64,000 nt of DNA from Escherichia coli. GTDB taxonomy: Bacteria > Pseudomonadota > Gammaproteobacteria > Enterobacterales > Enterobacteriaceae. The stretch lies in NCBI RefSeq assembly GCF_009931435.1, contig NZ_CP043414.1; one strand, 5' to 3'. Position numbers: made by a program. The first letter of the stretch is position 1. Every line of letters begins with the position of its first letter. Shown piece after piece: positions 41,001 to 44,000 of this stretch.

Positions 41001-44000
41001 GAAGAATATGCAGGAAAATGATAGATAGCTGTTATCAGGGTACACGCAATAAGAAGTCATCTTTTGGCAGACATATAATATGTTCTCCATTCATTGTTTT
41101 TATGATTCCATAGGAATTAATACATCAGATAATTCATTTTGATTAAGAACGACTCAGAAAGTATATTTAAAGGTGAATGGCAAAGCGTGATGGAGATCGC
41201 AGATTACTTTTACCCCCGGGTGTGGAGGTATCGTGTTTCAAAAAGTGTGTCGATTTTAAATATCACTCATTGATTTATAAACATTTTTCCTCACAAAAAG
41301 AAAATTCAATTCTGTACAAGAATATTTTGTATCTTCTATTACTTTCTCCAGTAATAACTCACCATTCAGGCATAACTTAAACCTCTTGTTCATAATCTCA
41401 ACTTTTGTAAATGAAAACGCACATAAGAGTTAAAATAAACAATGTACTAAAGATTAATTACGCAAAAATGCGAGGCGTCTTCAGGATTAGAATCGATAAA
41501 ACAGAATGGGTTAAAGAGAGCGATATAATAGCGGCGGGTGCTTGAGGCTGTCTGTCTCAGGCATTAGCTGAACGGCAGATAGAGAAAAGCCCCGAGTGAT
41601 ATTTTACCATCAACCCGAGGCCCCCTATATGCAGAACACATGTAGAGTGCCTCTTACTGACCGTAAGGTCAAGGAGAAGAGAGCAATGAAGCAGCATAAG
41701 GCGATGATTGTCGCCCTGATCGTCATCTGTATCACCGCCGTAGTGGCGGCGCTGGTAACGAGAAAAGACCTCTGTGAGGTTCACATCCGAACTGGCCAGA
41801 CGGAGGTTGCTGTTTTCACGGCTTACGAATCCGAGTAAGAGCAACGGCGGGGAGTGATCCCCGCCACTTTACAGGTGCTCGCATATCTTCAACGCACCCT
41901 ATTTTTACCTGGCCTGCCCACGGGCAGGCTTTTGGGGAGGTTAGCGAGTCAGGTCGTCGAAAAACTTCTTCACACCATCAAAGAAGCTCTTTGAGCGCGG
42001 GCTGTTGTGCTCGCCGGTTGGGCCACCGAAGCTTTCTTGCAGCTCTTGCAGCAGCTGTTTCTGCTTCTCGTTCAGGCCTACCGGTGTTTCGACGACAACG
42101 CGGCACAGCAAATCACCCTGTGCGCCACCGCGGACAGACTTGACGCCTTTACCGCGCATACGGAACAGCTTACCGGTCTGGGTTTCGCCAGGCACTTTCA
42201 GTTTGACGCGACCATCAAGAGTCGGTACTTCGATTTCGCCACCCAGCGCCGCCATAGCGAAGTTGATCGGGACTTCGCAATACAGGTTGTTGCCTTCACG
42301 CTCGAAAATCGGGTGCTGTTTAACCTGAACCTGAACGTACAGATCGCCTGCCGGTGCGCCATGCTCGCCCGCTTCACCTTCGCCCGCAAGACGGATGCGG
42401 TCTCCAGTGTCCACTCCTGCCGGGATTTTAACGGACAGCGTTTTGCTGCGCTCAACACGACCATGACCATGACATTTGTTGCACGGATCTTTGATCAGCG
42501 TACCGCGGCCCTGACAGTGTGGACAGGTCTGCTGTACAGCGAAGAAGCCCTGGCGCATCTGCACCTGACCAGAGCCATGACAGGTCGGACAGGTCTGCGG
42601 CTGTGTACCTGGTTTTGCACCGCTACCGTGGCAAACGTCACACTCTTCCAGAGTCGGAATGCGGATCTCTTTGGTCACGCCACGTACAGCTTCTTCGAGG
42701 GTGAGCTCCATGTTATAGCGTAAATCAGCACCGCGCGCCGCACGTTGACGACCACGTCCGCCGCCAAAAATATCGCCGAAAACGTCACCAAAAATATCGC
42801 TGAAGTCTGCGCCGCCGCCAAAACCGCCGCCGCCCATGCCGCCTTGCTCAAACGCAGCATGACCATACTGATCGTATGCCGCACGTTTTTGCGAGTCGGT
42901 CAGAACTTCATAAGCTTCCTTGATCTCTTTAAATTTCGCCTCGGCCTCTTTGTCACCCTGGTTACGGTCCGGGTGGTATTTCATGGCCAGGCGTTTGTAG
43001 GCCTTTTTGATTTCACGCTCTTCCGCTGTTTTGGAAACGCCTAAAATCTCGTAATAATCTTGCTTAGCCATCTTTTTTAAATTGCCCCTAGATGAATGCA
43101 CGGGCGGAGAGGAAATTCCCCTTCGCCCGTGTCAGTATAATTACCCGTTTATAGGGCGATTATTTTTTGTCTTTGACTTCTTCAAATTCAGCGTCGACAA
43201 CATCGTCATCTTTCGCGTTGTTTGCAGAAGCATCAGCACCGGCAGTCTGCTGCTGGGCATGTTGCTGCTGGGCGATTTCCATCAGTTTCTGGGAAACCTG
43301 TGCCAGTTCCTGCATTTTCGCTTCGATAGCGGCTTTGTCTTCACCTTTCAGAGCAGTTTCCAGTGCAGTCAGCGCAGACTCGATAGCAGTTTTGTCGTCA
43401 GCCGGCAGTTTGTCGCCTGCTTCTTCAACCTGCTTACGGGTGCTGTGCAGCAGATGGTCGCCCTGGTTGCGAGTCTGTACCAGCTCTTCAAACTTACGGT
43501 CAGCTTCGGCGTTAGCTTCTGCGTCGCGTACCATTTTCTGGATTTCATCTTCGTTCAGACCAGAAGAAGCCTTGATGGTGATCTTCTGCTCTTTACCGCT
43601 GTTTTTATCTTTCGCGGAAACGTGCAGGATACCGTCAGCATCGATATCGAAGGTAACTTCGATCTGCGGCATACCGCGCGGTGCCGGGTTGATACCATCC
43701 AGGTTGAACTGACCCAGAGATTTGTTATCAGCTGCACGTTTACGTTCACCCTGCAGCACGTGGATGGTTACCGCAGACTGGTTATCTTCAGCGGTAGAGA
43801 ACACCTGGCTGTGCTTGGTCGGGATAGTGGTGTTTTTCGCGATCAGCGTCGTCATCACACCGCCCATGGTTTCGATACCCAGAGACAGCGGGGTAACGTC
43901 CAGCAGCAGTACGTCTTTTACGTCACCAGTCAGAACACCACCCTGAACAGCAGCGCCGATTGCTACAGCTTCGTCCGGGTTAACGTCTTTACGCGGCTCT

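What the first reader, a model, noticed from the sequence alone, without database searches (positions are those of the whole stretch)
41585..41940. Intact hokC/mokC locus with no IS186 insertion
The Hok peptide is canonical and the overlapping mok frame and a downstream GC hairpin (gcctgcccacgggcaggc followed by TTTTG) are present. K-12 has IS186 inserted downstream of hokC, which is thought to inactivate the locus; here it is uninterrupted, so the type I toxin-antitoxin system could be functional. The sokC antisense RNA is inferred by position only.
Basis: partly seen in the sequence, partly recalled or inferred. Interest (0 to 1): 0.3.

Follow-up and report, generated by a model that had tools for sequence, protein, structure and literature searches.

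The report
Intact hokC toxin-antitoxin locus, IS186-free
This is the ordinary, uninterrupted form of the E. coli hokC/mokC/sokC toxin-antitoxin locus next to dnaJ; about 70% of complete E. coli genomes carry it this way and it was described in 1999, so the call is correct but not new.

Summary
Window 41536-41934 (+) holds a complete hokC/mokC/sokC type I toxin-antitoxin locus that converges on dnaJ. HokC (41686-41838) is identical to K-12 HokC. MokC (41629-41838, same frame) differs from K-12 by L2Q.

The IS186 target, hairpin GGCGGGGAGTGATCCCCGCC (41846-41865), is unoccupied and unduplicated. With IS186 removed from K-12 in silico, the two loci differ at only five positions between 41463 and 41945. 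The two that fall inside the predicted folded core are unpaired.

Every RNA element of the hok paradigm is present and behaves as expected in silico:
- a nascent 5' metastable hairpin;
- tac/fbi fold-back (pair probabilities at least 0.945);
- mok Shine-Dalgarno sequestered by ucb;
- a switch to a tac/ucb stem once the 3' end is trimmed;
- a SokC antisense with a terminator-like fold, and K-12-identical promoter hexamers.

The IS-free state is the majority: 3814 of 5426 complete genomes. An intact hokC from strain ECOR24 was characterised by Pedersen and Gerdes (1999). Secondary sources disagree on whether that locus is active. Verdict: real, correctly interpreted, already known, low interest.

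The parts
41524..41529 (+). hokC/mokC promoter -10 box TATAAT. The -35 region around 41501-41506 is poor. The inferred transcription start is G at about 41536.
   Evidence: Read directly from the sequence. The box is identical in K-12. The Rfam leader model begins at 41536. The consensus promoter scan did not report it because the -35 is weak.
41536..41934 (+). Predicted full-length hokC mRNA, about 399 nt. It is closed and translationally inert.
   Evidence: MFE -167.8 kcal/mol, z = -7.45 against 100 shuffles. The 5' end pairs with 41887-41899.
41536..41547 (+). tac (translational activator) element, GGGUGCUUGAGG.
   Evidence: It pairs with fbi in the full-length RNA at probabilities 0.945-1.0. 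In 3'-trimmed RNA it pairs with ucb. In the nascent 31-nt RNA it sits in a 12-bp metastable hairpin, -17.7 kcal/mol, z = -5.3.
41587..41593 (+). ucb / anti-Shine-Dalgarno box, AAGCCCC.
   Evidence: It pairs with the mok SD in the full-length fold and with tac after 3' trimming. AAAGCCCC is invariant in five family members.
41617..41620 (+). mok Shine-Dalgarno, GAGG.
   Evidence: It is sequestered by 41589-41593 in the full-length fold. It matches the GAGG mok SD motif described for plasmid R1 (PMC9841398).
41629..41838 (+). mokC reading frame, 69 aa. It is in frame with hokC and extends it at the N-terminus.
   Evidence: K-12 mokC and hokC share a stop codon. L2Q relative to K-12. Both alleles at 41633 occur among lineages.
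41579..41637 (-). SokC antisense RNA, by homology to K-12 sokC (b4413).
   Evidence: Coordinates mapped from the K-12 annotation. 57 of 59 nt are identical to K-12. The fold has a 9-nt free 5' tail, a long hairpin and a CUUUUCUCUAU tail, -23.1 kcal/mol, z = -3.9.
41644..41672 (-). Putative sokC promoter: -35 TTGACC (41672-41667), 17-nt spacer, -10 CACTCT (41649-41644), +1 at 41637.
   Evidence: Read from the sequence and identical to K-12. Plasmid homologs have TTGNNN-N17-TA(A/C)T(C/A)T at the same place. The consensus scan does not report it, and the -10 is weak (only A2 and T6 match).
41686..41838 (+). hokC (gef) toxin CDS, 50 aa, with its SD (AGGAG) at 41672-41676.
   Evidence: Pfam PF01848, E=6.8e-24. 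100% identical to K-12 hokC.
41824..41827 (+). UACG at Tyr47 (TAC), the TadA A-to-I editing site that recodes Y to C.
   Evidence: The sequence is identical to K-12, where hokC transcripts are reported to be 9% edited (PMC12214031). Editing was not tested here.
41846..41865 (+). 3' stem-loop GGCGGGGAGUGAUCCCCGCC. It is the likely 3' end of the processed (about 330 nt) mRNA and is the IS186 target site, empty here.
   Evidence: An 8-bp hairpin, -18.5 kcal/mol. K-12 IS186A sits inside it with the duplication GGGAGTGATCCC. Megablast matches of interrupted genomes break at 41861. The ECOR24 hokC transcript is reported as about 330 nt (PMC3562002).
41887..41899 (+). fbi (fold-back inhibition) element, CUUCAACGCACCC.
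   Evidence: It forms 12 bp with tac. Across five family members 89.7% of cells are paired, with one compensatory pair, U-A to C-G.
41912..41934 (+). Terminator-like hairpin GCCUGCCCACGGGCAGGC plus UUUUG, 7 nt from the dnaJ stop codon.
   Evidence: An 8-bp hairpin, -17.9 kcal/mol. It has a U-run on the + strand only. The scan does not report it because there are only four T.
41941..43071 (-). dnaJ, the convergent neighbour that fixes the chromosomal context.

Best explanation
Window 41524-41934 is a structurally complete chromosomal hok-family type I toxin-antitoxin locus: hokC (also called gef), mokC and sokC of E. coli, in its IS186-free form.

Proposed mechanism. The sequence and folding steps are shown in silico here; the biochemistry is inferred from the plasmid R1 paradigm.
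1. A promoter with a perfect -10 box and a weak -35 makes a full-length mRNA of about 399 nt.
2. While the RNA is being made, its 5' tac element is held in a metastable hairpin.
3. In the finished RNA, tac pairs with fbi near the 3' end. The mok Shine-Dalgarno is bound by ucb and the mok AUG by 41882-41884. The RNA is therefore neither translated nor open to Sok.
4. Slow 3' exonucleolytic trimming removes fbi and stops at the GGCGGGG...CCCCGCC stem-loop, leaving about 330 nt.
5. tac then pairs with ucb. This frees the mok ribosome-binding site and exposes the Sok target.
6. The unstable 59-nt SokC antisense RNA pairs with this form, and the duplex is destroyed by RNase III.
7. If SokC decays, mok translation drives coupled hok translation, and the 50-aa membrane peptide depolarises or kills the cell. 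TadA editing of Tyr47 to Cys may tune its toxicity.

In K-12, IS186 splits the 3' stem-loop and moves fbi 1.3 kb away. Here nothing is displaced.
For: - **Toxin.** Pfam HOK_GEF, E=6.8e-24. The CDS is identical to K-12 hokC.
- **Leader.** It fits Rfam RF01794 at 116.9 bits against a gathering score of 59. K-12 and five plasmid hok loci fit the same model.
- **Full-length fold.** z = -7.45 with tac/fbi pairing. Pair probabilities are 0.945-1.0, and the mok SD and AUG are sequestered.
- **Switch.** Trimming the 3' end to 41893 or to 41886, 41866 or 41861 (but not to 41880; see the Against line) moves the 5' end onto 41587-41593.
- **Metastable hairpin.** The nascent 5' hairpin folds at -17.7 kcal/mol, z = -5.3.
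- **SokC.** The fold has a free 5' tail and a terminator-like hairpin.
- **Comparison with K-12.** The empty IS186 target and the K-12 duplication were read directly. Only five differences from IS-excised K-12 lie between 41463 and 41945. Of these, 41623 and 41633 are unpaired in the full-length fold.
- **Conservation.** tac, fbi and both 3' hairpins are invariant across six other E. coli hokC loci compared (K-12 with IS186 removed in silico, L002, L008 ST131, L009, L010 and L012 O157:H7).
- **Family covariation.** tac/fbi position 4 changes from U-A to C-G in plasmid homologs.
- **Context.** The dnaJ-hokC arrangement occurs uninterrupted in 3814 of 5426 genomes.
- **Literature.** The mechanism is described in PMC9841398. 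K-12 mokC/sokC double-stranded RNA and RNase III dependence are in PMC7373196. HokC peptide toxicity on overexpression is reported in bioRxiv 10.1101/2025.08.07.668861.
Against: - **No expression data.** Nothing here shows transcription in this strain.
- **Promoter scan negative.** The consensus scan reports neither the hok nor the sok promoter. The sok -10 (CACTCT) and the hok -35 are weak.
- **Terminator below threshold.** The terminal hairpin has only four U and falls below the scan's criteria.
- **Thin covariation.** Support rests on five sequences and one compensatory pair; 47 of 500 shuffles reach the observed pairing.
- **An exception in the trimming series.** The MFE with the 3' end at 41880 pairs tac with a wobble-rich alternative (41872-41880) instead of ucb. 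The predicted switch therefore depends on where processing stops.
- **Activity disputed.** A recent summary of Pedersen and Gerdes (1999) states that the intact ECOR24 hokC locus did not mediate post-segregational killing and was not activated by rifampicin (bioRxiv 10.1101/2025.08.07.668861).
Confidence: 0.9

Rival explanations
1. The locus is structurally intact but physiologically silent. It is transcribed and processed like hok of R1, yet it never delivers enough HokC to kill or arrest cells. It would be a conserved but 'disarmed' chromosomal relic, or it may have another role such as protecting against plasmid addiction.
For: The bioRxiv paper 10.1101/2025.08.07.668861 reports that hokC of ECOR24 could not mediate post-segregational killing and was not rifampicin-activated. 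The hok -35 is weak. HokC has Tyr rather than Cys at position 47 unless edited, and editing in K-12 is only 9% (PMC12214031).
Against: PMC1635323 summarises the same 1999 work as showing that the ECOR loci are active. All RNA elements are invariant across divergent lineages, which argues for continued selection. The HokC peptide is toxic when overexpressed. IS186 has disrupted the locus in about 30% of genomes in both orientations, which could indicate that the intact locus carries a cost.
Confidence: 0.4
2. The hairpin at 41912-41929 is mainly the dnaKJ operon terminator and not part of the hokC system. hokC transcripts would then end elsewhere.
For: The hairpin lies 11 nt from the dnaJ stop codon. 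In K-12 it stays with dnaJ on the far side of IS186.
Against: The U-run (UUUUG) is on the hokC strand. On the dnaJ strand the stem is followed by CAGGUAAAAAU, and the fold there is weaker (z = -1.4 against -2.6). Plasmid hok homologs, which have no dnaJ neighbour, show the same order of stop codon, GC hairpin, fbi and terminator hairpin. The two roles are not exclusive, since the terminator could be bidirectional.
Confidence: 0.25
3. The match is a chance ORF plus chance hairpins in an intergenic region.
For: None beyond the small size of the ORF.
Against: Pfam E=6.8e-24. Rfam 116.9 bits. Fold z = -7.45. The locus is present in 5425 of 5426 E. coli genomes.
Confidence: 0.01

Closest known systems
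hokC (gef)/mokC/sokC of E. coli, IS-free form, as in strain ECOR24 (Pedersen and Gerdes 1999, Mol Microbiol 32:1090, known here only through citing papers)
   Same: Same chromosomal site next to dnaJ and the same genes, with no IS186. The transcript length reported for ECOR24 (about 330 nt, PMC3562002) matches 41536-41865. The same arrangement occurs in 3814 of 5426 complete genomes, and 1221 of them are at least 99% identical over 41400-41960.
   Different: No functional difference was detected. The ECOR24 sequence itself was not available for comparison. Here the locus is flanked upstream by an ompK-like/sulfatase island instead of nhaA.
hokC/mokC/sokC of E. coli K-12 MG1655 (b4412/b0018/b4413) with IS186A
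   Same: HokC, tac, ucb, both Shine-Dalgarno sequences, the Sok promoter hexamers, fbi and the hairpins are identical. Only five differences exist once IS186 is removed in silico.
   Different: K-12 has the 1.3-kb IS186A inside the 41846-41865 stem-loop with a duplication of about 12 bp. This separates fbi and the terminator from the mRNA. MokC is L2 in K-12 and Q2 here.
hok/mok/sok of plasmid R1, the paradigm of the family
   Same: Same set and order of RNA elements: tac, metastable hairpin, ucb, Sok target, mok SD, Sok promoter overlapping the hok SD, 3' stem-loop, fbi and terminator. The in-silico switch from full-length to truncated RNA is the same (PMC9841398).
   Different: This locus is chromosomal. 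mokC is in the same frame as hokC, whereas in R1 mok overlaps hok in another frame (from memory, not tested here). The tac/fbi sequence differs by compensatory changes. The Sok -10 is weaker. The R1 locus mediates post-segregational killing, while this is disputed for hokC.
Plasmid-borne hokC-like loci annotated 'hokD' on IncHI1B plasmids (L003, L004)
   Same: About 74% nucleotide identity from the -10 box to the end of fbi. tac is identical and the architecture is the same. One of them (L004) carries IS186/IS421 in the equivalent 3' stem-loop.
   Different: They are plasmid-borne, the Hok peptide is 51 aa with several substitutions, and the terminator hairpin differs.

Membership tests
[quoted passage not shown] | A small hydrophobic Hok/Gef toxin peptide of about 50 aa | tested here: met
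   PF01848, E=6.8e-24, covering profile positions 1-42 of 42. The CDS is identical to K-12 HokC.
[quoted passage not shown] | A mok leader reading frame with its own Shine-Dalgarno that starts upstream of hok and overlaps it | tested here: met
   GAGG at 41617-41620, ATG at 41629, and an open frame to 41838. The layout matches K-12 mokC. Translational coupling itself cannot be tested here.
[quoted passage not shown] | A 5' leader with the conserved sequence and structure (tac stem, Sok-target hairpin) | tested here: met
   Rfam RF01794, 116.9 bits against a gathering score of 59, covering model positions 1-157 of 157. The model matches the hok-sense strand.
[quoted passage not shown] | Long-range tac/fbi pairing between the 5' and 3' ends of the full-length mRNA | tested here: met
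   Twelve base pairs with probabilities 0.945-1.0. Across five family members 89.7% of cells are paired, with a U-A to C-G compensatory change (small sample).
[quoted passage not shown] | ucb sequesters the mok SD in the full-length RNA, and removing the 3' end switches the RNA to a tac/ucb stem | tested here: met
   Shown by MFE folding only. The 3' end at 41880 gives an alternative pairing.
[quoted passage not shown] | A metastable 5' hairpin in the nascent transcript | tested here: met
   The first 31 nt fold into a 12-bp hairpin, -17.7 kcal/mol, z = -5.3.
[quoted passage not shown] | A cis-encoded Sok antisense RNA with its own promoter and terminator that overlaps the mok start | tested here: inconclusive
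   57 of 59 nt match the annotated K-12 sokC, and the promoter hexamers are identical. The fold is terminator-like. The consensus promoter scan is negative and the -10 is weak. No expression data exist for this strain.
[quoted passage not shown] | Slow 3' processing of a stable mRNA, an unstable Sok, and RNase III cleavage of the duplex | not testable with these tools
   Only literature on R1 and K-12 is available (PMC9841398, PMC7373196).
[quoted passage not shown] | Cell killing when Sok is lost (post-segregational killing, rifampicin induction) | not testable with these tools
   Secondary sources conflict for the intact hokC of ECOR24: bioRxiv 10.1101/2025.08.07.668861 says no, PMC1635323 says active.
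hokC locus specifically (orthology) | Position between dnaJ and the nhaA side of the chromosome, convergent with dnaJ | tested here: met
   dnaJ stops at 41941. The arrangement is the same in K-12, ST131, O157:H7 and others.
IS186-disrupted hokC (K-12 type) | IS186 inside the GGGG-N-CCCC stem-loop, with target duplication | tested here: not met
   There is a single uninterrupted copy at 41846-41865.

The most novel reading that the evidence does not exclude
The intact hokC locus is active and costly in nature. IS186 has disarmed it repeatedly by hitting the one stem-loop that both protects the processed mRNA and links it to fbi.

The evidence leaves this open. The same 12-bp target is occupied in both orientations on chromosomes: 831 genomes carry the K-12 junction and up to 941 carry the opposite-orientation junction. 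A plasmid homolog is hit in the equivalent stem-loop.

This could reflect selection for inactivation, or simply the known preference of IS186 for GGGG-N6/7-CCCC targets (from memory).
Probability: 0.15. Interest if true: 0.35.

Novelty: already known. Interest (0 to 1): 0.08.

Why it matters
It matters little beyond correct annotation. It shows that K-12 is the atypical strain at this locus. Work on the physiological role of chromosomal hok loci should use IS-free strains such as this one. The conflicting literature on whether intact hokC can kill could be settled in such a strain.

Tried and rejected
- **Consensus promoter and terminator scan of 41300-42000.** It found neither the hok nor the sok promoter, nor the terminal hairpin. 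Its only hits are a minus-strand promoter-like site (41554-41525) and a minus-strand terminator-like site inside the hok CDS (41780-41768). The number of hits is no higher than in shuffles. I treat them as uninformative and rely on identity to K-12 instead.
- **Rfam weak hit.** rpsL_pseudo on the minus strand at 41806-41930 scores 19.7 bits against a gathering score of 70, E=0.24. I rejected it as chance.
- **Antisense ORFs.** The largest is 95 aa at 41557-41844 (-). Nothing supports it and I did not pursue it.
- **ORF 41177-41380 (+), 67 aa.** It has no Pfam match.
- **The primary paper.** Pedersen and Gerdes (1999) is not held in the library, so what it found is known only from three citing papers that partly disagree.
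- **The Rfam 'sok' hit as evidence for the antisense RNA.** I rejected this use because the model matches the hok-sense strand, both here and in K-12.
- **Counts of IS186-occupied genomes.** The counts from the two junction queries plus the empty-site query sum to more than 5426. Some junction matches probably come from other hok-IS186 junctions, so the two orientation counts are approximate.
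Full report
**What is there**

Window 41000-42600 was read directly and its ORFs were listed. A 50-aa ORF at 41686-41838 (+) matches Pfam HOK_GEF over the whole profile, E=6.8e-24. An ATG at 41629 opens the same frame 19 codons upstream. K-12 annotates mokC in exactly this way: mokC and hokC share a stop codon.

dnaJ (41941-43071) and dnaK (43160-45076) lie on the minus strand, so hokC converges on dnaJ. The 153 nt from 41536 to the hok AUG fit Rfam RF01794 end to end at 116.9 bits, against a gathering score of 59. That family is named 'sok', but it matches the hok-sense strand here and in K-12. It is therefore evidence for the hok leader, not for the antisense RNA.

**The IS186 question**

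In K-12 MG1655, IS186A (15387-16731) lies between dnaJ and hokC. Reading the junctions shows that it sits inside the palindromic GGCGGGGAGTGATCCCCGCC. The sequence GGGAGTGATCCC is duplicated on either side of the ATAAGCG...CGCTTAT core. The window has one intact copy at 41846-41865, so the site is empty.

I removed IS186 and one duplicate from K-12 in silico and aligned the result to the window. Between 41463 and 41945 there are only five differences:
- 41504 G/A;
- 41623 C/T;
- 41633 A/T, which gives MokC L2Q;
- a 1-nt deletion at 41908;
- 41910 T/A.

Upstream of 41463 the homology ends. K-12 continues towards nhaA, while the window has an ompK-like gene and a sulfatase gene.

**RNA elements**

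| Element | Window coordinates | Strand |
|---|---|---|
| hok promoter -10, TATAAT | 41524-41529 | + |
| Inferred transcription start | about 41536 | + |
| tac, GGGUGCUUGAGG | 41536-41547 | + |
| ucb, AAGCCCC | 41587-41593 | + |
| mok SD, GAGG | 41617-41620 | + |
| sokC -35, TTGACC | 41672-41667 | - |
| sokC -10, CACTCT (17-nt spacer) | 41649-41644 | - |
| SokC RNA | 41637 to 41579 | - |
| hok SD, AGGAG | 41672-41676 | + |
| 3' stem-loop | 41846-41865 | + |
| fbi, CUUCAACGCACCC | 41887-41899 | + |
| Terminator-like hairpin plus UUUUG | 41912-41934 | + |

**Folding results**

- The first 31 nt fold into a 12-bp hairpin that hides tac, -17.7 kcal/mol, z = -5.3.
- The 399-nt RNA (41536-41934) folds at -167.8 kcal/mol, z = -7.45, with its 5' end paired to fbi. 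Pair probabilities are 0.945-1.0.
- In that full-length fold the mok SD is paired to ucb and the mok AUG to 41882-41884.
- Shortening the 3' end to 41893, 41886, 41866 or 41861 moves the 5' end onto ucb. This is the tac/ucb stem of the translatable, Sok-accessible form described for plasmid R1 (PMC9841398).
- One end point, 41880, gives a wobble-rich alternative pairing instead.
- The SokC-equivalent RNA folds with a free 9-nt 5' tail, a long hairpin and a U-rich tail, z = -3.9.
- The two polymorphisms inside the Sok region, 41623 and 41633, are unpaired in the full-length fold.

**Family comparison**

Five plasmid hok loci were fetched, and all of them fit RF01794. All but L004, where IS186/IS421 interrupts the 3' stem-loop, show the same 3' layout: stop codon, GC stem-loop, fbi, terminator.

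On an alignment of the window with four of them, the tac/fbi helix is paired in 89.7% of cells. Slid controls give 33-59%. Position 4 switches from U-A to C-G. The sample is small, and the shuffle control is not decisive (47 of 500).

The Sok promoter position is conserved as TTGNNN-N17-TA(A/C)T(C/A)T in the plasmids. hokC has CACTCT, the same as K-12. The consensus scan reports neither promoter, so promoter function is inferred from identity with K-12. There sokC is an annotated RNA, and a mokC/sokC double-stranded RNA cluster is captured and RNase III-dependent (PMC7373196).

**Population**

| State of the site | Complete E. coli genomes (of 5426) |
|---|---|
| 41790-41935 found in one piece (uninterrupted) | 3814 (70%) |
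| K-12-type hokC-IS186 junction | 831 |
| Opposite-orientation junction, same target and duplication (L011) | up to 941 |

The three counts slightly exceed the total, probably because other hok-IS186 junctions cross-match. Within the IS-free loci of divergent lineages (ST131, O157:H7 and others), tac, fbi and both 3' hairpins are invariant. The IS-free locus is therefore the common, conserved state, and K-12 is one of a minority.

**What is known**

- PMC3562002, citing Pedersen and Gerdes (1999), describes hokC/sokC of ECOR24 as the IS-free version of K-12 gef. It gives a transcript of about 330 nt. It says IS186 in K-12 is thought to disrupt fbi and mRNA processing.
- PMC12214031 repeats that hokA, hokC and hokE of K-12 are thought to be inactivated by insertion elements. 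It reports 9% TadA editing of hokC at the Tyr codon. That codon is present here at 41824-41826.
- On activity the secondary sources disagree. bioRxiv 10.1101/2025.08.07.668861 says ECOR24 hokC could not mediate post-segregational killing and was not rifampicin-activated. It also says the HokC peptide is toxic on overexpression. PMC1635323 says the ECOR loci are active.
- The primary paper is not in the library.

**Verdict**

All defining sequence and structure features of a hok/sok locus are met in silico. Expression, processing and killing were not testable. The finding is an already known, majority allele, so interest is low.

The only mildly open point is whether the intact locus is active. 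A related question is whether the recurrent IS186 hits on its 3' stem-loop, seen in both orientations and also in a plasmid homolog, reflect selection or only target preference.

Noticed in passing
window 40313-41074 (-), stop codon at 41057-41059: The ompK/tsx-like outer-membrane gene upstream of hokC has an in-frame TGA at codon 6 (MSAKR*). The ortholog in strain ECCNB12-2 (L002) reads MSAKRR and is intact at 253 aa. It is probably a pseudogene in this strain, or it restarts at the GTG that gives 197 aa.
   Followed up: partly
window about 35400-41463: An island lies between hokC and nhaA/nhaR: the ompK-like gene, a sulfatase gene (38799-40292) and, in L002, a gene for a protein with an IS1/IS1595-type zinc-binding domain. 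K-12, O157:H7 and others lack it, and homology to K-12 ends at about 41463. The island is 5-12% divergent from L002 in places, while dnaK, dnaJ and hokC are about 99% identical.
   Followed up: partly
L011 2560-2600 and 3905-3935 (strain BY68): IS186/IS421 is inserted at exactly the same hokC stem-loop with the same GGGAGTGATCCC duplication, but in the opposite orientation to K-12. Up to 941 genomes carry this junction, against 831 with the K-12 junction. This implies at least two independent insertions at one site.
   Followed up: partly
L004 about 745-770 (plasmid pEF7-18-58_1): A plasmid hokC-like locus also has IS186/IS421 inside the equivalent GGCGGGGAGAGATCCC stem-loop, which cuts off its fbi. 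The intact sister locus L003 keeps it.
   Followed up: partly
window 41536-41688 (+); L001 2902-3054 (-): Rfam RF01794, named 'sok antitoxin', matches the hok mRNA sense strand and ends at the hok AUG. It does not match the strand of the annotated sokC RNA. Hits to it should not be read as antisense RNA genes.
   Followed up: yes
L008 (ST131) and L010, aligned to window 41485-41525: The 40 bp just upstream of the hok -10 box differ at 14 positions in ST131, although the locus is nearly identical from the -10 box onward. Strain 2013C-3181 (L010) has TCTAAT instead of TATAAT, so it loses the key A2 of the -10 box. The hok promoter may be dead in that lineage.
   Followed up: no
RefSeq annotations under hits H1-H50: The annotation pipeline labels the 153-nt, 50-aa Hok CDS as 'mokC: type I toxin-antitoxin system toxin MokC'. 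It annotates no separate mok frame or sokC RNA outside K-12.
   Followed up: no
window 41768-41780 (-): A terminator-like site, ACCTCACAGAGGT followed by CTTTTCTCGT, lies on the dnaJ strand inside the hok CDS. The hairpins nearer dnaJ lack a U-run on that strand, so dnaKJ read-through could run antisense across the hokC 3' UTR in IS-free strains. This is speculative.
   Followed up: no
window 43072-43149 (-), 56927-57046 (-), 18998-19050 (-), 51603-51645 (+): Other Rfam matches above the gathering score: tpke11 between dnaK and dnaJ, the threonine operon leader, ES003 and ES036. All are expected for this part of the E. coli chromosome.
   Followed up: no
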